Sequence record: PQ010280.1
Source: Escherichia phage vB_EcoM_CQ615
Strand: one strand, 5' to 3'
Length of the DNA: 39,709 nt
The notes under the pieces are model-generated. The model saw only the letters and a list, made by a program, of their open reading frames with translations. It was not told where the DNA came from and searched no databases. The translations under genes were made by a program, and so were the position numbers. Below are positions 6,853-39,087 of the stretch, one piece after another. Numbering within the stretch: position 1 is the first letter of the stretch; each line of letters starts with the position of its first letter.

Positions 6853-7878
6853 ATGATGAACATTAAGACCAACCCATTCAAAGCCGTGTCTTTCATAGAG
6901 TCTGCCATTAAGAAAGCTCTGGATAACGCTGGGTATCTTATTGCTGACATTAAGTACGATGGTGTGCGTGGTAACATCTGCGTAGACAATACCGCTAACT
7001 GCTGCTGGCTCTCTCGTGTATCCAAACCGATTCCGGCACTGTCTTACCTTAATGGGTTCGACGCACGTTGGCAGCGTCTACTAAAGGATGACCGTTGCTT
7101 CTACCCTGATGGCTTCATGCTGGATTGCGAACTTATGGTCAAGGGAGTGGACTTCAACACTGGCTCCGGCCTTCTGCGGACCAAGTGGCTCAACAAGAAG
7201 AACATGCAGTTCGATATTGGAGGTCCGTATGAATCGTGGGACGTGAGCCTGAAGGGACTTCCTTTCGGTATTGACCCGAACTTACTAACAGTTAAACTCT
7301 ACGCTATCCTTCCGTACCACATTGTGGAATCTGGGGAAGACTGTGATGTCATGACGTTGCTCATGCAGGAACACGTTAAGAACATGCTGCCTCTGCTACA
7401 GGAATACTTTCCTGAAATCGAATGGCAAGCGGCTGAGTCTTACGAGGTTTACGACATGGTAGAACTACAGCAACTGTACGAGAAGAAGCGTGAAGAAGGG
7501 CATGAGGGTCTCATTGTGAAAGACCCGATGTGCATCTACAAGCGCGGTAAGAAGTCCGGCTGGTGGAAACTTAAGCCTCTTGAGGAAGCTGACGGTATCA
7601 TTCAAGGTGTAAACTGGGGAACCGAAGGGCTTGCTAACGAAGGTAAGGTAATTGGATTCAAGGTGCTTCTTGAGACTGGTCGTCTTGTGGATGCCAATAA
7701 CATCTCTCGCGCCTTAATGGATGAATTTACAGCTAACGTTAAAGAACATGGCGAGGACTATTATAATGGCTGGGCTTGCCAGATTGGATTTATGGAGGAA
7801 ACACCAGATGGCTCATTGCGTCACCCGTCCTTCACCTGCTTCCGAGGAACTGAGGACAATCCGAAAGAGAAAGTATAA
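6853..7878 (+). CDS. 1.3: ATP-dependent DNA ligase (gp1.3)
   Basis: 341 aa, MMNIKTNPFKAVSF..., adenylation motif KYDGVRG; T7 ligase-like but shorter (T7: 359 aa) with divergent internal patches. Confidence 0.93.
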   Translation: MMNIKTNPFKAVSFIESAIKKALDNAGYLIADIKYDGVRGNICVDNTANCCWLSRVSKPIPALSYLNGFDARWQRLLKDDRCFYPDGFMLDCELMVKGVDFNTGSGLLRTKWLNKKNMQFDIGGPYESWDVSLKGLPFGIDPNLLTVKLYAILPYHIVESGEDCDVMTLLMQEHVKNMLPLLQEYFPEIEWQAAESYEVYDMVELQQLYEKKREEGHEGLIVKDPMCIYKRGKKSGWWKLKPLEEADGIIQGVNWGTEGLANEGKVIGFKVLLETGRLVDANNISRALMDEFTANVKEHGEDYYNGWACQIGFMEETPDGSLRHPSFTCFRGTEDNPKEKV

Positions 7879-8278
7879 GTATAACCCTGCGGCTCCTTCG
7901 GGAGTCATTTCTGCCTCTGGTAAACCCATAGGGTACAAGCGGAAAGATGGGTATTGGGTTCTTTCTTATGGAGGAAAGCAGTTACTTGCACACAGGGTGG
8001 TCTGGATGCTTAACTTCGGTGCAATACCCGATGGAATGGTGATAGACCACATTAACAGAAACCCTAGCGACAACCGCATAGAGAATCTTCGAGTAGTAAC
8101 TCAATCAGCTAACCTAAGGAATGTAGGCGTCCGGTCTCACTGTAGGAGTGGAGAGAAGTTTATCTCCCTTGATGTGAGAACCGGACGTTTTTCCGTTCGT
8201 ATCAGGAGAAAATCCTATGGAACATATGGTACTCTCGAAGAGGCTATAGCTGTGCGCGATGCTAATACGACTCACTAA
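7808..8278 (+). CDS. HNH endonuclease with AP2-like DNA-binding tail (homing-endonuclease-like); start uncertain
   Basis: Open frame to TAA 8276-8278; HNH core GYWVLSYGGKQLLAHRVVWMLNFGAIPDGMVIDHINRNPSDNRIENLRVVTQSANLRN, then SVRIRRKSYGTYGTLEEAIAVRDAN; the only in-frame ATG before the HNH core with an SD (GGAGGA 7794-7799) is 7808, inside the ligase 3' end; no ATG/GTG/TTG lies between the ligase stop and the core. Confidence 0.55.
   Translation: MAHCVTRPSPASEELRTIRKRKYKYNPAAPSGVISASGKPIGYKRKDGYWVLSYGGKQLLAHRVVWMLNFGAIPDGMVIDHINRNPSDNRIENLRVVTQSANLRNVGVRSHCRSGEKFISLDVRTGRFSVRIRRKSYGTYGTLEEAIAVRDANTTH
7888..7912 (+). terminator. Weak hairpin after the ligase gene (possible early terminator TE analogue)
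   Basis: ggctcc-ttcg-ggagtc: 6-bp stem with one G-U pair and a UUCG tetraloop, followed by auuucu; position matches where T7 places TE. Confidence 0.3.
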
Positions 8279-10097: not shown

Positions 10098-10553
10098 GTG
10101 GCTGGCGCATACGCTGCGCGTGGTATCAGAAAGGTCGGGACATTCCGTTCCGGCCTAGAAGATAAGGTCTCTAAGCAGCTAGAGGGTAAGGGTATTAAGT
10201 TCGATTATGAACTGTGGAAAATCCCTTACGTTGTCCCTGCGAGCAACCATGTGTATACTCCAGACTTCCTGCTGCCTAACGGAATCTTTATTGAAACCAA
10301 AGGTTTATGGGAGAGTGACGACCGAAAGAAACACTTATTGATTCGCGAACAGTTTCCTGAACTGGACATCCGTCTGGTGTTCTCAAGCTCACGCACCAAG
10401 CTATACAAAGGGTCTCCGACCAGTTACGGCGAATGGTGTGAGAAGCACGGTATTCTGTTTGCTGACAAATTAATTCCTGTAGAATGGCTCAAAGAACCCA
10501 AAAAGGAGGTGCCATTTGACAAGCTGAAACAATCGAAGGGAGGAAAGAAATAA
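10098..10553 (+). CDS. 3: Endonuclease I, Holliday-junction resolvase (gp3)
   Basis: 151 aa, GTG start right after the 2.5 stop; ...YTPDFLLPNGIFIETKGLWESDDRKKHLLIREQFPELDIRLVF... Confidence 0.93.
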   Translation: MAGAYAARGIRKVGTFRSGLEDKVSKQLEGKGIKFDYELWKIPYVVPASNHVYTPDFLLPNGIFIETKGLWESDDRKKHLLIREQFPELDIRLVFSSSRTKLYKGSPTSYGEWCEKHGILFADKLIPVEWLKEPKKEVPFDKLKQSKGGKK

Positions 10554-11008: not shown

Positions 11009-11009
11009 T

Positions 11010-11032
11010 TAATTGAACTCACTAAAGGGAGA
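11010..11032 (+). promoter_or_regulatory. Phage RNAP promoter phi3.8-like
   Basis: taattgaactcactaaagggaga, followed by ccacaacggtttccc leader. Confidence 0.75.
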
Positions 11033-11064
11033 CCACAACGGTTTCCCTTTGTTCGCGTTGTTGA

Positions 11065-12838
<1,774 letters not shown>

Positions 12839-16001: not shown

Positions 16002-16232
16002 ATGGCTACTTGGAAATATAGGATAGTAGAACTTGAAACCACAGAGGGTACTGTCCTGTATTCGCCACAGTTCAGGCACAAGTGGTTCCCGTTCTGGAGT
16101 CACTTTTGCAGCTATGTAGACGAGCGACGACTTGTGTTTGCCGACATCGAAGATGCTAAACGGTTTCTTAGCGAAACACGCGCTAACGATGAACCAGAAG
16201 TTAAGAAAGTAAGAAAAATCCATTCACTCTAA
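16002..16232 (+). CDS. Hypothetical 76-aa protein in the slot T7 uses for gene 5.3
   Basis: ATG 16002 with SD ataggagagatag; MATWKYRIVELETTEGTVLYSPQFRHKWFPFWSHFCSYVDERRLVFADIEDAKRFLSETRANDEPEVKKVRKIHSL; no HNH motif; no family recognised. Confidence 0.6.
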   Translation: MATWKYRIVELETTEGTVLYSPQFRHKWFPFWSHFCSYVDERRLVFADIEDAKRFLSETRANDEPEVKKVRKIHSL

Positions 16233-17902: not shown

Positions 17903-17963
17903 TAAACTCAAGGTCCCTAAATTAATACGACTCACTATAGGGAGATAGGGGCCTTTATGATTA
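17903..17963 (+). promoter_or_regulatory. Putative RNase III site (R6.5-like) enclosing phi6.5
   Basis: aaactcaaggtccctaaat...ggggcctttatgattatt flanking the promoter. Confidence 0.4.
17923..17945 (+). promoter_or_regulatory. Phage RNAP promoter phi6.5 (class III consensus)
   Basis: taatacgactcactatagggaga. Confidence 0.85.
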
Positions 17964-18929: not shown

Positions 18930-19232
18930 ATGGGTAAGAAAATTAAGAAGGCCGTGAAGAAAGTCACTAAGTCCGTTAAGAAAGTCGTTAAGGAAGTGGC
19001 TCGTCCGGTTAAACAGGTTGCCAGTGGTCTTGCTGGTGGTGCTGGTGAAGCACAGGTAGTGGAAGTGCCACAAGCTGCTGCAACTCCCGCTGCACAGATT
19101 GTTGACGTACCTGAGAAAGAGGTTTCCACTGAGGATGAAGCACAGACCGAAAGCGGACGTAAGAAAGCTCGCGCTGGTGGTAAGAAGTCCTTGAGTGTGG
19201 CCCGTAGCTCCGGTGGCGGCATCAATATTTAA
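18930..19232 (+). CDS. 7.3: gp7.3-like tail-associated protein
   Basis: 100 aa, Lys/Val-rich MGKKIKKAVKKVTKSVKKVVKEVARPVKQ... Confidence 0.85.
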   Translation: MGKKIKKAVKKVTKSVKKVVKEVARPVKQVASGLAGGAGEAQVVEVPQAAATPAAQIVDVPEKEVSTEDEAQTESGRKKARAGGKKSLSVARSSGGGINI

Positions 19233-19246
19233 TCAGGAGGTGACAC

Positions 19247-20857
19247 ATGGCTGAGAAGCGTACAGGTCTAGCCGAGGAAGGTGCAAAGTCGGTCTATGAG
19301 CGATTAAAGAACGACCGCGCTCCTTATGAGACTCGTGCTCAAAACTGCGCTCAGTACACCATTCCGTCCCTCTTCCCTAAGGACTCCGACAACGCATCTA
19401 CAGACTACACAACTCCGTGGCAAGCTGTGGGTGCTCGCGGTCTCAATAACTTGGCCTCTAAGCTCATGCTGGCTCTCTTCCCGATGCAAACGTGGATGAA
19501 ACTAACCATCTCTGAGTTCGAGGCCAAACAGTTACTGAACGACCCCGATGGACTCGCTAAGGTTGATGAGGGCCTATCAATGGTAGAGCGTATCATCATG
19601 AACTACATTGAGTCTAACAGCTACCGAGTGACTCTCTTTGAGGCTCTCAAGCAGTTAGTCGTTGCTGGCAACGTCCTGCTGTACCTACCGGAACCAGAAG
19701 GGTCGAACTACAATCCCATGAAGCTGTACCGATTGTCTTCTTATGTGGTCCAACGAGACGCATTCGGCAACGTTCTGCAAATGGTGACTCGTGACCAGAT
19801 AGCTTTTGGTGCTCTCCCTGAGGACATCCGTAAGGCTGTAGAAGGTCAAGGTGGTGAGAAGAAAGCCGATGAGACCGTCGACGTGTACACTCACATCTAT
19901 CTGGATGAGGACTCAGGTGAATACCTCCGGTACGAAGAGGTCGAGGGTATGGAAGTTCAAGGCTCCGATGGGTCTTACCCTAAAGAGGCTTGCCCATACA
20001 TCCCGATTCGAATGGTTAGGCTTGACGGTGAATCCTATGGTCGTTCGTACATTGAGGAATACTTAGGTGACTTACGGTCCCTTGAGAATCTCCAAGAGGC
20101 TATCGTCAAGATGTCCATGATTAGCTCTAAGGTTATCGGCTTAGTGAATCCTGCTGGTATCACCCAGCCACGCCGACTGACCAAAGCTCAGACTGGTGAC
20201 TTCGTTACTGGTCGTCCAGAAGACATCTCGTTCCTCCAACTGGAGAAGCAAGCAGACTTTACTGTAGCTAAAGCCGTAAGTGACGCTATCGAGGCTCGCC
20301 TTTCGTTTGCCTTTATGTTGAACTCTGCTGTTCAGCGCACTGGTGAGCGTGTGACCGCCGAAGAGATTCGGTATGTCGCTTCTGAACTTGAAGATACTTT
20401 AGGCGGTGTCTACTCCATCCTTTCTCAAGAATTACAATTGCCTCTGGTACGAGTGCTCTTGAAGCAACTACAAGCCACGCAACAGATTCCTGAGTTACCT
20501 AAGGAAGCCGTAGAGCCAACCATTAGTACAGGTCTGGAAGCAATTGGTCGAGGACAAGACCTTGATAAGCTGGAACGCTGTGTCACTGCGTGGGCTGCTC
20601 TAGCTCCTATGCGCGATGACCCTGACATCAACCTTGCAATGATTAAGTTGCGCATTGCGAACGCTATCGGTATTGACACTTCTGGTATCCTTCTTACAGA
20701 AGAACAGAAGCAACAGAAGATGGCCCAACAGTCTATGCAAATGGGTATGGATAATGGTGCCGCTGCGCTGGCTCAAGGTATGGCTGCACAGGCTACAGCT
20801 TCACCTGAGGCTATGGCTGCTGCTGCTGATTCCGTAGGTCTACAGCCGGGCATTTAA
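19247..20857 (+). CDS. 8: Portal (head-tail connector) protein (gp8)
   Basis: 536 aa, MAEKRTGLAEEGAKSVYERLKNDRAPYETRAQNCAQYTIPSLFP... Confidence 0.97.
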   Translation: MAEKRTGLAEEGAKSVYERLKNDRAPYETRAQNCAQYTIPSLFPKDSDNASTDYTTPWQAVGARGLNNLASKLMLALFPMQTWMKLTISEFEAKQLLNDPDGLAKVDEGLSMVERIIMNYIESNSYRVTLFEALKQLVVAGNVLLYLPEPEGSNYNPMKLYRLSSYVVQRDAFGNVLQMVTRDQIAFGALPEDIRKAVEGQGGEKKADETVDVYTHIYLDEDSGEYLRYEEVEGMEVQGSDGSYPKEACPYIPIRMVRLDGESYGRSYIEEYLGDLRSLENLQEAIVKMSMISSKVIGLVNPAGITQPRRLTKAQTGDFVTGRPEDISFLQLEKQADFTVAKAVSDAIEARLSFAFMLNSAVQRTGERVTAEEIRYVASELEDTLGGVYSILSQELQLPLVRVLLKQLQATQQIPELPKEAVEPTISTGLEAIGRGQDLDKLERCVTAWAALAPMRDDPDINLAMIKLRIANAIGIDTSGILLTEEQKQQKMAQQSMQMGMDNGAAALAQGMAAQATASPEAMAAAADSVGLQPGI

Positions 20858-23850: not shown

Positions 23851-26241
23851 ATGGCACTCATTAGCCAATCAATCAAGAACTTGAAGGGTGGTATCAGTCA
23901 ACAGCCTGACATCCTTCGTTATCCCGACCAAGGGTCACGCCAAGTTAACGGTTGGTCTTCGGAGACCGAGGGCCTCCAAAAGCGTCCACCTATGGTTTTC
24001 CTTAAGACACTAGGAGGAAGTGGTGACTTAGGACAAGCACCTCTCATTCACCTGATAAACCGTGACGAGTACGAGCGGTACTACGCAGTGTTTACAGGAA
24101 GTACCATCCGAGTTTTCGATTTAGCTGGTAACGAGAAACAAGTGCGTTTCCCTACAGGGGCAGCATATGTACAGACAGCTAACCCAAGGAATGACCTTCG
24201 GATGGTAACAGTTGCCGACTACACGTTTGTCGTTAACAGGAACGTCACTGTAACCGAGTCCACAGAAATTTCAACTGGTGGTAACTTTCGGGATAAAGGT
24301 GACGCGCTTGTTAACGTGCGAGGTGGTCAGTACGGACGAACGTTGAAGGTTCTTATTAATGGAACAGTATATGCATCGTACACAATCCCCAACGGGTCCG
24401 CTCCAGAACACGTCAATAATACCGATGCGCAATGGCTGGCTAACGAGTTGGCTAATCAGCTCAGGAACAACCTAGGACCCCACGGGTGGACATTCAATGT
24501 TGGTCAAGGGTTCATTCATGTAATAGCTCCTGCAAATGGTGAGGTAGCCTACATATCAACCGAGGATGGATACGCAGACCAGCTAATTAACCCTGTCACT
24601 CACTATGCTCAGTCGTTCTCTAAGTTGCCACCAAATGCTCCAGACGGCTACATGGTTAAGATTGTGGGAGATTCCTCAAAGTCCGCTGACCAGTATTACG
24701 TTCAGTATGATTCCAGTCGTAAGGTATGGAAGGAAGTTGTTGGGTGGAACACCAAGCTGCACTACACTCATGATACGATGCCTCACGCTCTCATTAGGGC
24801 CTCTGACGGTAACTTTGAGTTCAAGACCATCTCGTGGAACCCTAGGGTGTGCGGTGATGCTGATACTAACCCGTATCCTTCATTCGTAGGCTCTACGATT
24901 AATGATGTCTTCTTCTTCCGTAACCGTTTAGGATTCCTTAGCGGAGAGAACATCATATTGAGTCGTACTGCAAAATACTTCAACTTCTTCCCAGCGTCGG
25001 TTGCTAACCTAAGTGATGACGACCCTATAGACGTAGCTGTGAGTACCAACCGAATAGCAATCCTTAAGTACGCCGTTCCGTTCTCAGAAGAGTTACTCAT
25101 CTGGTCCGATGAAGCACAATTCGTCCTGACTGCTTCTGGGACTCTCACGTCGAAGTCGGTTGAGTTGAACCTAACGACTCAGTTTGACGTACAGGACCGA
25201 GCGAGACCTTTTGGGATTGGACGCAATGTCTACTTTGCTAGTCCGAGGTCCAGCTTCACGTCCATCCACAGATACTATGCTGTGCAGGACGTAAGTTCCG
25301 TTAAGAACGCTGAGGACATTACAGCACACGTTCCTAACTACATTCCAAATGGTGTGTTTAGTATTTGTGGTAGTGGTACTGAAAACTTCTGTTCTGTACT
25401 ATCTCACGGGGACCCTAGCAAAATCTTCATGTACAAATTCCTTTACCTTAACGAAGAGCTAAGGCAACAGTCATGGTCTCACTGGGACTTTGGGGCAAAC
25501 GTGCAGGTTTTGGCATGTCAGAGCATCAACTCAGATATGTTCATTATTCTACGTAACGAGTTCAATACGTTCCTTGCGAGAGTTTCCTTTACGAAGAACG
25601 CCATTGACTTACAGGGAGAACCCTATCGGGCCTTTATGGATATGAAGATTCGCTACACGATTCCAAGCGGAACGTACAACGATGACACCTACGAAACTTC
25701 CATTCACATACCAACCATTTATGGTGCGAACTTCGGGAGGGGCAAAATCACTGTATTGGAGCCTGATGGTAAGATAACCGTATTTGAGCAACCAACTGCT
25801 GGGTGGAACAATGACCCATGGTTGAGGCTTAGTGGTAACTTAGAGGGACGAACGGTATACATTGGGTTCAACATTAACTTCGTCTATGAGTTCTCTAAGT
25901 TTCTCATCAAGCAGACTGCCGACGATGGGTCAACCTCAACGGAAGACATTGGTCGCTTGCAGTTACGCCGAGCGTGGGTTAACTATGAGGAGTCTGGTAC
26001 GTTTGACATTTATGTTGAGAACCAATCATCCAACTGGAAGTATACTATGGCTGGTGCTCGCTTAGGCTCTAACACTCTGAGGGCTGGGCGATTGAACTTA
26101 GGGACAGGACAATACCGATTCCCTGTGGTTGGTAACGCCAAGTTCAATACCGTGTCTATCTTGTCTGATGAGACTACCCCGCTGAACATCATTGGTTGTG
26201 GCTGGGAAGGTAACTACTTACGGAGAAGTTCCGGTATTTAA
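23851..26241 (+). CDS. 12: Tail tubular protein B (gp12)
   Basis: 796 aa, MALISQSIKNLKGGISQQPDILRYPDQGSRQVNGWSSETEGLQKRPP... Confidence 0.96.
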   Translation: MALISQSIKNLKGGISQQPDILRYPDQGSRQVNGWSSETEGLQKRPPMVFLKTLGGSGDLGQAPLIHLINRDEYERYYAVFTGSTIRVFDLAGNEKQVRFPTGAAYVQTANPRNDLRMVTVADYTFVVNRNVTVTESTEISTGGNFRDKGDALVNVRGGQYGRTLKVLINGTVYASYTIPNGSAPEHVNNTDAQWLANELANQLRNNLGPHGWTFNVGQGFIHVIAPANGEVAYISTEDGYADQLINPVTHYAQSFSKLPPNAPDGYMVKIVGDSSKSADQYYVQYDSSRKVWKEVVGWNTKLHYTHDTMPHALIRASDGNFEFKTISWNPRVCGDADTNPYPSFVGSTINDVFFFRNRLGFLSGENIILSRTAKYFNFFPASVANLSDDDPIDVAVSTNRIAILKYAVPFSEELLIWSDEAQFVLTASGTLTSKSVELNLTTQFDVQDRARPFGIGRNVYFASPRSSFTSIHRYYAVQDVSSVKNAEDITAHVPNYIPNGVFSICGSGTENFCSVLSHGDPSKIFMYKFLYLNEELRQQSWSHWDFGANVQVLACQSINSDMFIILRNEFNTFLARVSFTKNAIDLQGEPYRAFMDMKIRYTIPSGTYNDDTYETSIHIPTIYGANFGRGKITVLEPDGKITVFEQPTAGWNNDPWLRLSGNLEGRTVYIGFNINFVYEFSKFLIKQTADDGSTSTEDIGRLQLRRAWVNYEESGTFDIYVENQSSNWKYTMAGARLGSNTLRAGRLNLGTGQYRFPVVGNAKFNTVSILSDETTPLNIIGCGWEGNYLRRSSGI

Positions 26242-33638: not shown

Positions 33639-35300
33639 ATGGCTAACGTAATTAAGACCGTTTTGACTTACCAGTTAGATGGCTCCACTCGTGATTTTAA
33701 TATCCCGTTTGAGTATCTAGCCCGTAAGTTCGTAGTGGTGACTCTTATTGGTGTAGACCGTAAGGTCCTCACGATTAATACAGACTATCGCTTTGCTACA
33801 CGTACTACCATCTCTCTGACCAAGGCTTGGGGTCCAGCCGATGGCTACACGACCATCGAGTTGCGTCGAGTAACCTCCACGACCGACCGATTGGTTGACT
33901 TTACGGACGGCTCAATCCTCCGTGCGTATGACCTTAACGTCGCTCAGATTCAAACGATGCACGTAGCGGAAGAGGCCCGTGACCTGACTGCTGATACCAT
34001 CGGTGTCAATAATGATGGTCACTTGGATGCCCGTGGTCGTCGAATTGTGAACCTTGCTAACGCCGTGGATGACCGTGATGCTGTTCCGCTGGGGCAACTC
34101 AAGACCATGAACCAGAACTCGTGGCAGGCGCGTAATGAGGCCCTACAGTTCCGTAATGAGGCTGAGACTTTCAGAAATCAAGCGGAGGGCTTTAAGAACG
34201 AGTCTAGCACTAACGCTACGAACACTAATCAGTGGCGTAATGAGGCTAAGGGGTTCCGTGATGAAGCAGAGCAGTTCAAGAATACGGCTGGTCAATATGC
34301 TACATCTGCTGGGAACTCTGCTACTGCCGCACATCAATCTGAGGTGAACGCTGCTAACTCCGCAACTGCTTCCGCTAACTCTGCTACTCTGGCAGAACAG
34401 CAAGCAGACCGCGCCGAGCGTGAGGCTGATAAACTTGGTAACTGGAATGGACTTGCTGGTGCTGTAGATAGTGTTCAGGGTGATAGTGTATTCTGGAAAG
34501 GAAGCGGCTATTGGGTCGGAGGTCCCGTATACCAACTACAAACGAACCACGCGTTTAGGTTCCGTATGGGTCTTTGGGAAGAAGGCGACTTCCTTAAGTC
34601 TGACTTCGCTATGGACAGACCGGACGGCATAGGGTTCATAGAGTATGCAGCGGACAAGACTGGGCAACATTGTCACCAGATTCGACTTAATCAGTTAACA
34701 ATAGCTGGCGGTGTGTTAGAGTCAGATGCTGATGATCGCATAGCTCACGCTTTCGCTGACCAGTACAACACTAAAGCTCCTTTCTTCCAACAGATTCGTG
34801 CACAATCTACAAGCTCATATCACCCAATAATAAAGCAACGAACTTACCAATCTGGACGGTGGGCAGGATGCTGGTCTATCGGTACATTGCTGACTGGAAC
34901 GAGTCCGTCATTCCACATACATATGAAAGACGAAGGGATAGATGGGAAACTTTGGACGTTCAATACCAATGGAGACTTCCGCGCCCCTGGGGAGATTTGG
35001 GCCGATGGTGGACGTGTGGTTGTACAGAATGGCTCTTTTAACCCTGCTGGTAGAGTGTGGGGTACTGCGTATGATTCCGGATACCTTGACGACTGGGTTC
35101 GAAGACATTTCATAGGGGATGTATACCTAGGTCCTCATGTGTGGCAACAACAAACTGGAGGTTATCAGGACATTATAGCACCATCTGGGCATGTGCAAAC
35201 AGGTACAACCGCTAGTAATGGAGCCGTTGCGGGTATCTTTGTAAGACCGGTATGGCTTGGTTTCCATAACGGCACAAAAAGAATCATTGCGTCGCAGTAA
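33639..35300 (+). CDS. 17: Tail fiber protein (gp17) with a non-T7 distal (receptor-binding) half
   Basis: 553 aa; N-terminal about 270 aa (MANVIKTVLTYQLDGSTRDFNIPFEYLARKFVVVTLIG...; repeat region FRNEAETFRNQAEGFKNE) match T7 gp17; from about residue 272 (nt 34455) the sequence diverges (GSGYWVGGPVYQLQ...GIFVRPVWLGFHNGTKRIIASQ). Confidence 0.93.
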   Translation: MANVIKTVLTYQLDGSTRDFNIPFEYLARKFVVVTLIGVDRKVLTINTDYRFATRTTISLTKAWGPADGYTTIELRRVTSTTDRLVDFTDGSILRAYDLNVAQIQTMHVAEEARDLTADTIGVNNDGHLDARGRRIVNLANAVDDRDAVPLGQLKTMNQNSWQARNEALQFRNEAETFRNQAEGFKNESSTNATNTNQWRNEAKGFRDEAEQFKNTAGQYATSAGNSATAAHQSEVNAANSATASANSATLAEQQADRAEREADKLGNWNGLAGAVDSVQGDSVFWKGSGYWVGGPVYQLQTNHAFRFRMGLWEEGDFLKSDFAMDRPDGIGFIEYAADKTGQHCHQIRLNQLTIAGGVLESDADDRIAHAFADQYNTKAPFFQQIRAQSTSSYHPIIKQRTYQSGRWAGCWSIGTLLTGTSPSFHIHMKDEGIDGKLWTFNTNGDFRAPGEIWADGGRVVVQNGSFNPAGRVWGTAYDSGYLDDWVRRHFIGDVYLGPHVWQQQTGGYQDIIAPSGHVQTGTTASNGAVAGIFVRPVWLGFHNGTKRIIASQ

Positions 35301-35309
35301 GGAGGAACA

Positions 35310-35687
35310 ATGCGAGTATTTACTAACTGGAAGTGGACCGAAGGGTCTTACTTTGGAAAACCCATCTATGAGATTCGCGACAACAGTAACGTTGATTGGT
35401 ACACCTTAATGGATGAACTAGATGAGCGCCAAGAAACATGGGTGGTAGGTATTGGGCCTAGAGGAGACGTTATGTGGTTCACTGATGGACCCGTGTCTGG
35501 ACTGTACGTGCCTGTAGATGGAGGGACCGTTGTAGTAACTGATTCTTTCGAGTTCTCTGACAACTGGCGAGGGTGTACATGGGACGGTAAGAAATTCCAC
35601 GCACCAGAAGAAGCCCAGAAGCGAACTAAGGAGGACATTGAGCAGGACTTACTGAAACTCATGGCTGAGTTGAAGGGTCTAGAATAA
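35310..35687 (+). CDS. Hypothetical 125-aa protein between tail fiber and holin; candidate fiber-associated factor
   Basis: ATG 35310 with strong SD (taaggagg) overlapping the gene 17 stop; MRVFTNWKWTEGSYFGKPIYEIRDNSNVDWY...DNWRGCTWDGKKFHAPEEAQKRTKEDIEQDLLKLMAELKGLE; no gene sits here in canonical T7. Confidence 0.65.
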   Translation: MRVFTNWKWTEGSYFGKPIYEIRDNSNVDWYTLMDELDERQETWVVGIGPRGDVMWFTDGPVSGLYVPVDGGTVVVTDSFEFSDNWRGCTWDGKKFHAPEEAQKRTKEDIEQDLLKLMAELKGLE

Positions 35688-35708
35688 TTATAACAAGGAA
35701 AGGCGTGT

Positions 35709-38569: not shown

Positions 38570-39013
38570 ATGATAAGCAAGAAGAAGTATGTTGTCGATA
38601 AGGAGACTGGTTGCTGGAACTTTAAGGGATGTAAGACTAAGACTGGTTATGGTCGTATTCGCGTGAATGGAGTCCATTGGATGGCCCACAGGTATTCCCT
38701 GAGTTGTCATCTAGGCAGACCGATAGCTGACGAAATGGTTGTGATGCACATGTGTGATAACCCCTCATGTGTTAACCCTGAGCACCTTAAGGAAGGGACT
38801 CAGAAGGAAAACATAGAGGACTGCATATCAAAAGGTCGCGCAACTAAGGCCACAGGTAAACGCGATGCGTCGAAGAGAGACCCTAGCGAGGAACGTAAGG
38901 CTATAGTTATTCGTAGATACCATAAAGGCTGGACCGCAACGTCCATAGCGAGATACCATAAGCTCTCTGTGGCGTGGGTCAAGAGGGTCATTGAGGATTA
39001 CCTAAGTGATTGA
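38570..39013 (+). CDS. HNH endonuclease with C-terminal helix-turn-helix, directly downstream of the terminase
   Basis: ATG 38570 with SD aaggagg; 147 aa; GCWNFKGCKTKTGYGRIRVNGVHWMAHRYS...MHMCDNPSCVNPEHLKEGTQKENIEDC (classic HNH), then basic linker and HTH-like RRYHKGWTATSIARYHKLSVAWVKRVI. Confidence 0.8.
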   Translation: MISKKKYVVDKETGCWNFKGCKTKTGYGRIRVNGVHWMAHRYSLSCHLGRPIADEMVVMHMCDNPSCVNPEHLKEGTQKENIEDCISKGRATKATGKRDASKRDPSEERKAIVIRRYHKGWTATSIARYHKLSVAWVKRVIEDYLSD

Positions 39014-39064: not shown

Positions 39065-39087
39065 TAATTCGACTCACTATAGGGAGA
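39065..39087 (+). promoter_or_regulatory. Phage RNAP promoter phiOR-like
   Basis: taattcgactcactatagggaga (one mismatch from consensus). Confidence 0.75.

What the first reader, a model, noticed from the sequence alone, without database searches (positions are those of the whole stretch)
19225..19250. No gene 7.7 (HNH-like in T7) between 7.3 and the portal gene
Gene 8 starts 14 nt after the 7.3 stop, whereas T7 has the 130-aa gp7.7 here. This is another empty canonical homing-endonuclease site; presence-absence polymorphism at such sites is the expected signature of endonuclease gene mobility.
Basis: established knowledge. Interest (0 to 1): 0.35.

Follow-up and report, generated by a model that had tools for sequence, protein, structure and literature searches.

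The report
Empty homing-endonuclease site before portal gene
This T7-like phage lacks the selfish nuclease gene that T7 carries just before its portal gene, which is the usual state in this phage group; the only unusual feature is a short foreign-looking stretch at the start of the portal gene that is never found next to that nuclease gene.

Summary
Gene 7.3 stops at 19232, a 14-nt spacer (TCAGGAGGTGACAC) carries the ribosome-binding site, and gene 8 starts at 19247. T7 has its 393-nt HNH gene 7.7 exactly there.

This is ordinary. Only 5 of about 79 related loci in IMG/VR are occupied, and the closest GenBank relatives (N30, 04922B, JB01) have the same junction.

The window does encode 7.7 homologues: HNH genes at 38570-39013 (gene 19.4 type) and about 7808-8278 (gene 1.45 type). 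They are paralogues, not a relocated 7.7.

New here: occupancy goes with a haplotype block in gene 8.
- All 10 occupied genomes, carrying four HNH lineages 43-51% identical, have allele "P".
- All 13 close empty genomes, including the window, have allele "m".
- All 17 fixed differences lie in gene 8 nt 12-254 (33 up to nt 293 in a smaller set); none lie in 2.6 kb upstream.
- Outgroups show that m is the foreign allele (dS 1.57 against 0.19 in the rest of the gene).

So the site is a real homing site. Whether the window's allele is refractory or susceptible to the enzyme cannot be settled by computation. Interest is low.

The parts
18930..19232 (+). Gene 7.3 (100 aa, virion/tail assembly protein); TAA stop at 19230-19232.
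   Evidence: ORF list; Pfam PF11653, E 7e-51. No differences fixed between occupied and empty genomes anywhere in the 2.6 kb upstream of the site.
19233..19246 (+). 14-nt intergenic spacer TCAGGAGGTGACAC, with the Shine-Dalgarno sequence AGGAGGT at 19235-19241, 5 nt before the gene 8 ATG. This is the unoccupied state of the 7.7 site.
   Evidence: Sequence. Identical or nearly identical in N30 and other empty relatives. In T7 and C5 the same Shine-Dalgarno sequence serves the HNH gene instead.
19247..19250 (+). ATGG, the insertion point. In C5-type genomes a 393-nt HNH cassette lies between two copies of ATGG (ATGG-AGAAT...TCTA-ATGG-CTGAG).
   Evidence: Alignment of the window, N30, T7 and C5; junction sequences.
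19247..20857 (+). Gene 8, head-tail connector (portal), 536 aa.
   Evidence: Pfam PF12236, E 7e-113.
19247..19539 (+). The 'm' haplotype tract (gene 8 nt 1-293). All differences fixed between occupied and empty genomes fall here. It is 18.5% diverged from the 'P' allele of occupied genomes, against 5.4% in the rest of the gene. The core sites at nt 12, 15, 21, 24 and 27 lie in 19258-19273.
   Evidence: P about 1e-10 for the clustering. Outgroup comparison shows m is the foreign allele. dS is 1.57 in the tract against 0.185 in the rest.
38570..39013 (+). HNH endonuclease gene of the gene 19.4 type (147 aa, HNH_3 plus a C-terminal HTH_23). It is a paralogue of gp7.7, 44% identical over the nuclease domain.
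   Evidence: At least 92% identical copies at the same position in N30, JB01, IME390 and others, and 69% to 13a gp19.4. It lies in a 618-nt stretch where T7 has 230 nt.
7808..8278 (+). HNH endonuclease gene of the gene 1.45 type, overlapping the 3' end of the ligase gene (6853-7878). The ORF is open from 7721 and the true start is uncertain.
   Evidence: Pfam HNH_3, E 1.6e-20; 82% identical to phiYeO3-12 gene 1.45 and 95% to phage JeanTinguely; replaces the T7 gene 1.4 region.
10098..10121 (+). Junction between genes 2.5 and 3; T7 gene 2.8 (HNH) is absent here.
   Evidence: blastn against T7: window 10101/10122 joins T7 9860/10278.
11009..11094 (+). Interval between genes 3.5 and 4; T7 gene 3.8 (HNH) is absent here.
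   Evidence: blastn against T7: window 11060/11095 joins T7 11213/11586.

Best explanation
The 14-nt spacer between genes 7.3 and 8 is the ordinary, unoccupied state of a homing site. A family of free-standing HNH endonuclease genes uses this site: T7 gene 7.7 and at least three other lineages.

Shown: in occupied genomes a cassette of about 393-402 nt sits exactly between the end of gene 7.3 and the gene 8 ATG. It either takes over the gene 8 Shine-Dalgarno sequence (T7 and C5 types) or overlaps the 7.3 stop codon (13a and pO111 types). It always ends ...KTWRHI* with TAATG overlapping the gene 8 start.

Inferred: the W-R codons of that conserved end contain GGAG 9 nt before the ATG, which would act as a replacement ribosome-binding site for gene 8.

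The window has none of this. It carries the 'm' allele of the first ~293 nt of gene 8. This is a patch that begins at the insertion point, is phylogenetically foreign to the T7 clade, and is never found next to an HNH gene.

My reading (inferred) is that the patch is a footprint of endonuclease-provoked break repair at this site, copied from a divergent phage that lacked the gene. I lean towards m being refractory to 7.7-family enzymes, so the site would be stably empty rather than awaiting invasion. The direction, refractory or susceptible, is not shown.
For: - Precise cassette boundaries.
- Sporadic occupancy: 5 of about 79 IMG/VR loci. The closest relatives are empty.
- Four HNH lineages 43-51% identical to each other occupy the same site. 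They are under purifying selection (pN/pS 0.25 for T7 against C5; dN/dS 0.15 for UViG1011 against pO111) and have an intact HNH_3 domain.
- Link to the haplotype: 10 of 10 occupied genomes are P and 13 of 13 m genomes are empty. All 17 fixed differences lie in gene 8 nt 12-254, none in nt 255-1560, and none in 2.6 kb upstream. The probability of that clustering is about 1e-10.
- A degenerate-pattern scan of metagenomes found only the two pure haplotypes at nt 12-27.
- m is the foreign allele: the Vi06 clade is 11-13% from P but 17.6-18.5% from m in the tract, and 9-10% from both elsewhere. dS is 1.57 in the tract against 0.185 in the rest.
- Independent replicate in another genus: L052 (occupied) against L031 (empty), 84% identity in nt 1-100 against 95.5% in nt 301-1500.
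- P-type empty sites are few in the genomes sequence-checked here: PDP351P2 and the Vi06 clade.
- The literature treats T7 genes 2.8, 3.8 and 7.7 as homing endonucleases, and the triple deletion is viable (10.1101/2025.09.07.674715).
Against: - No cleavage or homing data exist for gp7.7, and its recognition site is unknown.
- Tight physical linkage alone would keep nt 12-27 tied to the cassette, and 18% divergence would suppress crossovers within the tract. The association therefore does not need selection.
- Three occupied genomes (LNA7, pO111, AH67C600_Q5) have P near the cassette and m-like sites further away. No empty genome shows the reciprocal pattern. That asymmetry (3 of 10 against 0 of 13) is what homing into m recipients would produce, and it favours the rival reading.
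- No donor lineage for the m patch was found; the next best hits are about 82% identical.
- The sample of natural isolates is small and partly redundant.
Confidence: 0.6

Rival explanations
1. Classical free-standing homing, as with T4 SegF and SegG. The m allele in the window is the naive, cleavable target. The enzyme cuts within the first ~100-300 nt of gene 8 of genomes lacking the gene. Repair from a carrier copies the HNH gene plus the intervening P sequence, and P is the self-immune allele.
For: - The linked tract is one-sided and lies downstream only.
- Occupied genomes LNA7, pO111 and AH67C600_Q5 are P near the cassette and m-like further away, like co-conversion tracts of different lengths. 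No reciprocal mosaics occur among 13 empty genomes.
- nt 1-32 of gene 8 are invariant in all 10 occupied genomes across four HNH lineages.
- From established knowledge: SegF and SegG cut 200-330 bp from their own genes.
Against: - The allele linked to the endonuclease gene (P) is the native one and m is the import. This is the opposite of what co-conversion from a foreign donor predicts.
- The left edge of the m patch at the insertion point is left unexplained.
- A susceptible allele being the commonest natural state (42 GenBank records at least 90% identical to the m tract) requires weak or rare homing.
Confidence: 0.25
2. Neutral history with no current mobility. The HNH genes at this site are resident or domesticated, for example serving anti-defence roles. 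The m patch is an unrelated recombination import. The association reflects only tight linkage and suppressed recombination in a divergent block.
For: - The association does not require selection, because the core sites are 12-27 nt from the cassette.
- A fitness role for T7 homing endonucleases that does not depend on homing has been reported (10.1101/2025.09.07.674715).
- The HNH alleles are ancient (synonymous sites saturated between T7 and C5).
Against: - The patch edge falls within 12 nt of the insertion point in a 40-kb genome.
- The same phenomenon appears in an unrelated lineage pair, L052 and L031.
- Occupancy is scattered with respect to relatedness in the rest of gene 8; the window's nearest neighbour there is an occupied genome.
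- Four divergent HNH alleles sit in near-identical flanks, which implies repeated replacement.
Confidence: 0.15
3. The nucleotide differences at the start of gene 8 (nt 12-27) are an adaptation of translation initiation. Gene 8 has a strong AGGAGGT in empty genomes and a weak GGAG with stop-start coupling in occupied genomes.
For: In two of three chimeric contexts, HNH 3' end plus m, the predicted accessibility of the start region drops (T7 0.56 to 0.44; C5 0.50 to 0.31).
Against: - No change in the 13a context or in the empty context.
- P-type starts occur naturally behind the strong Shine-Dalgarno sequence in PDP351P2 and the Vi06 clade.
- It cannot explain a 293-nt block with dS 1.57.
Confidence: 0.05

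Closest known systems
T7 gene 7.7 and its sister genes 2.8 and 3.8 (free-standing HNH homing-endonuclease genes of T7)
   Same: Same genomic position. The window's junction is what T7 would look like after removing the 393 nt between the Shine-Dalgarno sequence and the gene 8 ATG. gp7.7 matches HNH_3 and is dispensable (10.1101/2025.09.07.674715).
   Different: The window has no gene there. The sites of 2.8 and 3.8 are also empty. It instead carries HNH genes of the 1.45 and 19.4 types at other sites.
T4 SegF, SegG and MobE: intronless homing with marker exclusion and co-conversion of flanking DNA (established knowledge: Belle et al. 2002; Liu et al. 2003)
   Same: A free-standing endonuclease gene beside an essential, conserved gene. 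There is a one-sided flank of a few hundred nucleotides whose haplotype goes with the presence of the gene.
   Different: Here the flank linked to the endonuclease gene is the native allele and the flank without the gene is the foreign one. No cleavage site is known for gp7.7.
Homing-endonuclease genes at boundaries of genetic exchange, and loci that accept distinct such genes in an unchanged context (Barth, Dunham and Seed 2023, PMC10448857)
   Same: Four HNH lineages 43-51% identical occupy one site with flanks 94-100% identical. A recombination boundary sits at the endonuclease site.
   Different: That work concerns ICP1 and other phages and the T5orf172 and IPA-HNH families. The T7-group 7.3/8 site was not analysed there, as far as my text search of it showed.
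Escherichia phage N30 and relatives (04922B, JB01, NC-A, CICC 80001)
   Same: An identical 107-nt junction in N30 (100%). Same gene order 7.3 then 8, annotated in RefSeq without 7.7. Same 19.4-type HNH gene.
   Different: None relevant. The window is another member of this group.

Membership tests
Unoccupied homing site of a free-standing HNH endonuclease gene (T7 7.7 family) | The same position is occupied by an endonuclease gene in close relatives, with precise and reproducible boundaries. | tested here: met
   T7, phiA1122, C5, HZ2R8, LNA7, 13a, AH67C600_Q5, pO111, UViG1011 and contig ERZ807347 all carry a cassette of about 393-402 nt that ends TAATG on the gene 8 start.
Unoccupied homing site of a free-standing HNH endonuclease gene (T7 7.7 family) | Sporadic distribution that does not follow the relatedness of the host genomes. 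| tested here: met
   5 of about 79 IMG/VR loci are occupied. In gene 8 nt 295-1560, divergence between the two groups equals divergence within them (5.4% against 4.7% and 5.6%), and nearest neighbours are mixed.
Unoccupied homing site of a free-standing HNH endonuclease gene (T7 7.7 family) | The occupying ORF is an intact nuclease with a catalytic HNH motif and a DNA-binding module, and is under purifying selection. | tested here: met
   Pfam HNH_3, E 2.6e-13 for gp7.7. The H..N..H motif is conserved in all lineages. pN/pS is 0.25 and dN/dS is 0.15. The C-terminal helix-turn-helix is inferred from sequence only.
Unoccupied homing site of a free-standing HNH endonuclease gene (T7 7.7 family) | The flanking haplotype is linked to occupancy (a co-conversion or immunity tract). 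| tested here: met
   All 17 fixed differences lie in gene 8 nt 12-254 and none lie upstream. Replicated in the L052/L031 pair.
Unoccupied homing site of a free-standing HNH endonuclease gene (T7 7.7 family) | The enzyme cleaves the allele that lacks the gene, and the gene is copied into it in mixed infection. | not testable with these tools
   No biochemical or genetic data on gp7.7 were found. This needs cleavage assays and phage crosses.
gp7.7 orthologue relocated elsewhere in the window | Full-length similarity to proteins at the 7.7 site, including the conserved C-terminus KTWRHI. | tested here: not met
   ORF 38570-39013 is 44-48% identical to three of the four 7.7-site HNH proteins over only the 80-85-aa nuclease core (37% over 126 aa to L052), has a different C-terminus, and belongs to the 19.4 type. 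The ORF at 7808-8278 is 30-44% identical and belongs to the 1.45 type. Proteins at the 7.7 site align with each other over 130-136 aa.
Pfam HNH_3 (PF13392) endonucleases, for the two other ORFs of the window | Score above the Pfam gathering threshold of 24.8 bits. | tested here: met
   32.6 bits for 38570-39013 and 72.9 bits for 7721-8278.

The most novel reading that the evidence does not exclude
The first ~293 nt of the window's portal gene may be a resistance allele. In this reading the patch was copied from a divergent phage during repair of an endonuclease-made break at the 7.3/8 site. It then spread through T7-group phages because it makes them refractory to all four 7.7-family HNH lineages. 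If so, this small, essential-gene-adjacent locus would record an arms race between a selfish nuclease and its target, and that could be tested directly with T7 genetics.
Probability: 0.35. Interest if true: 0.4.

Novelty: already known. Interest (0 to 1): 0.18.

Why it matters
The absence of gene 7.7 has little importance in itself. It is the majority state in the T7 group, it is already visible in public annotation of the closest relatives, and T7 without 7.7 is viable. The comparative result around it is of modest use. It defines two sharply separated alleles of the portal gene's 5' end that go with the presence or absence of the endonuclease gene. It narrows the probable recognition or immunity determinant to the first ~130 nt of gene 8, with core sites at nt 12-27. 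It also gives a simple, testable system for intronless homing and target-site resistance in the best-studied phage, using T7 crossed with N30-like phages and the PDP351P2-type junction.

Tried and rejected
- Relocated 7.7 in the window: rejected. The two HNH ORFs are the 19.4 and 1.45 types, with different C-termini.
- My first reading, that the P tract is foreign DNA co-converted with the endonuclease gene: weakened. The Vi06-clade outgroup shows that P is native and m is the outlier.
- Donor of the m patch: not found. The next best matches are about 82% identical.
- Mixed haplotypes at gene 8 nt 12-27: none among IMG/VR and metagenome contigs, using a pattern that allows all 32 combinations.
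- An empty junction joined to the P haplotype: a chimeric query found one natural case, PDP351P2.
- Translation-context explanation: RNA accessibility of native against chimeric starts was inconsistent.
- Solved structures related to gp7.7 by sequence: none useful.
- Literature on gp7.7 cleavage or homing: none found. The only relevant paper uses a 2.8/3.8/7.7 triple deletion.
- Promoter at the junction: none.

Full report
**What the window is.** The 39,709-nt window is a complete T7-group (Teseptimavirus) genome with terminal repeats. It aligns with T7 along its whole length at 74-97% identity in blocks. Its closest GenBank relatives over the 1.3 kb around the finding are phages 04922B, JB01, vB_Yep_15 and N30, at about 96%.

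**Checking the observation.**
- Gene 7.3 is at 18930-19232 (100 aa; Pfam VirionAssem_T7, E 7e-51) and ends with TAA at 19230-19232.
- The spacer at 19233-19246 is TCAGGAGGTGACAC, 14 nt, with AGGAGGT five nucleotides before the start codon.
- Gene 8 begins at 19247 (536 aa; Pfam Head-tail_con, E 7e-113).
- T7 has gene 7.7 at this place (130 aa, NC_001604 19848-20240; Pfam HNH_3, E 2.6e-13).
- No T7-type promoter lies at the junction. Genes 7.3 and 8 lie between the promoters at 17923 and 20855.

**Anatomy of the occupied site.** I aligned the window, N30, T7 and C5 and then read the junctions of ten occupied genomes.
- The HNH cassette of about 393-402 nt lies exactly between the end of gene 7.3 and the gene 8 ATG.
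- In the T7 and C5 types, the HNH gene uses the Shine-Dalgarno sequence that serves gene 8 in empty genomes. In C5 the insert is bounded by a repeated ATGG.
- In the 13a and pO111 types, the spacer is gone and the HNH ATG overlaps the 7.3 stop codon (ATATGA).
- All alleles, including one in a distant genus (L052), end ...KTWRHI* with TAATG overlapping the gene 8 start.
- The W-R codons contain GGAG nine nucleotides before the ATG. I infer that this serves as a replacement ribosome-binding site for gene 8, and that this need explains why the last ~25 nt of the cassette are conserved.

**How common the empty state is.**
- Among 80 IMG/VR loci that encode gp8 relatives across the Studiervirinae, only five are occupied.
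- In GenBank phages, 42 records carry the window's version of the gene 8 start at 90% identity or more.
- N30 has an identical 107-nt junction and is annotated in RefSeq with 7.3 directly followed by 8.
- Occupied natural isolates include T7, the Yersinia pestis phages of the phiA1122 group, C5, HZ2R8, LNA7, 13a, AH67C600_Q5 and pO111.
- About 100 further records are laboratory T7 derivatives.

The absence of 7.7 is therefore the norm and is already known.

**The claim that there is no homologue elsewhere.** This claim is wrong at the level of the protein family.
- A tblastn search with T7 gp7.7 finds window 38612-38851 (44% identity over 80 aa, E 3.5e-16) and 7931-8251 (30% over 111 aa, E 2.4e-7). 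Both ORFs pass the Pfam HNH_3 threshold.
- The first (38570-39013) is the gene 19.4 type. It is at least 92% identical to copies in N30, JB01, IME390 and others, and 69% identical to 13a gp19.4.
- The second (about 7808-8278) is the gene 1.45 type of phiYeO3-12 (82%). It overlaps the 3' end of the ligase gene.
- Neither is a relocated 7.7. Proteins at the 7.7 site align with each other over their full 130-136 aa and share the KTWRHI end. The window's ORFs share only the nuclease core.
- The sites of T7's other two HNH genes, 2.8 and 3.8, are also empty in the window.

The phage therefore carries a different set of endonuclease genes rather than none.

**A haplotype block tied to occupancy.**
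- I first compared four occupied and nine empty close relatives, plus the window. There were 33 fixed differences, all in gene 8 nt 12-293. None lay in the next ~2,800 nt and none in 2.6 kb upstream.
- I then enlarged the sample to ten occupied genomes, which carry four HNH lineages 43-51% identical to each other, and 13 empty genomes. All 17 remaining fixed differences (8 occupied against 13 empty genomes over 1,560 nt) lie in nt 12-254.
- Given where the variable sites lie, the chance of that clustering is about 1e-10.
- Divergence between the two groups is 18.5% in nt 1-294. In nt 295-1560 it is 5.4%, the same as within the groups.
- Most of the differences are synonymous. dS is 1.57 in the tract against 0.185 in the rest of the gene, for T7 against the window.
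- I call the allele of occupied genomes P and the allele of the window m.
- A degenerate-pattern scan of metagenomes, which allowed any mixture at nt 12-27, returned only the two pure haplotypes. Each had the expected junction.
- A second lineage pair shows the same thing. L052 (occupied) and L031 (empty) are 95.5% identical in nt 301-1500 but 84% identical in nt 1-100.

**Which allele is native.** I first read P as foreign DNA dragged in with the endonuclease gene. The outgroup comparison contradicts this.
- Three Salmonella phages of the Vi06 clade all have empty sites.
- They are 11-13% from P but 17.6-18.5% from m in the tract. They are 9-10% from both alleles in the rest of the gene.
- So m is the phylogenetic outlier. 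It is a patch of about 293 nt whose left edge lies within 12 nt of the insertion point.
- Its donor is not among sequenced phages; the next best matches are about 82% identical.
- One natural genome, PDP351P2, has an empty junction followed by a full P tract.
- The HNH alleles themselves are ancient. Synonymous sites are saturated between T7 and C5 (pS 0.80), and the ORFs are under purifying selection (pN 0.20). Yet both flanks are 94-100% identical. This implies cassette-like replacement within constant flanks, as described for other phages (PMC10448857).

**Interpretation.**
- The site is a real homing site, and the window has its unoccupied state.
- The foreign patch starts at the insertion point, is never linked to an HNH gene, and is the commonest allele, while P-type empty sites are few among the genomes examined here. 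This is best explained as a product of break repair from a divergent template that lacked the gene.
- I lean towards m being refractory to the 7.7-family enzymes.
- The classical alternative is that m is the naive target and P is the self-immune flank that is obligatorily co-converted. It keeps real support. Three occupied genomes are P near the cassette and m-like further away, and no empty genome shows the reciprocal pattern.
- A purely neutral linkage model cannot be excluded.
- A translation-context explanation found no consistent support.
- No cleavage or homing data for gp7.7 exist in the searchable literature. The only relevant paper deletes 2.8, 3.8 and 7.7 together and reports an anti-defence effect (10.1101/2025.09.07.674715).

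**Verdict.**
- The feature is ordinary and already known. Interest is low (0.18).
- The linked haplotype block is a modest, testable by-product of the analysis.

Noticed in passing
window 38570-39013 (+): HNH endonuclease gene (147 aa, HNH_3 plus HTH_23) between gene 19 (terminase large subunit, ends 38532) and the right-end promoter at 39065. T7 has only 230 nt here where the window has 618 nt. It is the gene 19.4 type, shared with N30, JB01, IME390, pO111 and others.
   Followed up: yes
window 7721-8278 (+), probable start near 7808: HNH endonuclease gene of the phiYeO3-12 gene 1.45 type. It overlaps the 3' end of the ligase gene (6853-7878) in another reading frame and replaces the T7 gene 1.4 region. 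The true start codon was not determined.
   Followed up: partly
window 10098-10121 and 11009-11094: The sites of T7's other HNH genes, 2.8 and 3.8, are also unoccupied. All three T7 endonuclease sites are empty while two other sites are filled.
   Followed up: partly
window 16004-16229: T7 gene 5.3 (349 nt in T7) is replaced by about 225 nt with no blastn similarity to T7. Content not examined.
   Followed up: no
window 34503-35690: The 3' part of the tail-fibre gene 17 and the following interval do not align with T7 (1,187 nt against 805 nt in T7). This is probably a host-range module swap.
   Followed up: no
L106 (Teseptimavirus PDP351P2, OZ035763.1 around 23988-24094): A natural genome with an empty 7.3/8 junction followed by the full P haplotype of gene 8. 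It is either a precise loss of the HNH cassette or a P-type site that was never invaded. It would be a useful substrate for cleavage tests.
   Followed up: partly
L006, L097, L098, L099, L010, L008 (the 7.7 site in UViG1011, 13a, pO111, AH67C600_Q5, C5 and T7): Four HNH lineages, 43-51% identical and saturated at synonymous sites, sit in flanks that are 94-100% identical. The last ~25 nt of every allele are conserved (AAGACATGGAGRCAYATYTAATGG) and contain GGAG 9 nt before the gene 8 ATG.
   Followed up: partly
GenBank MZ375281, MZ375290, MZ375294, PV223881 (T7 laboratory derivatives): These T7 records match only the gene 8 part of the query, so they seem to lack 7.7 while keeping the P haplotype. 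They are probably deletions that were engineered or arose in laboratory evolution. Junctions not inspected.
   Followed up: no
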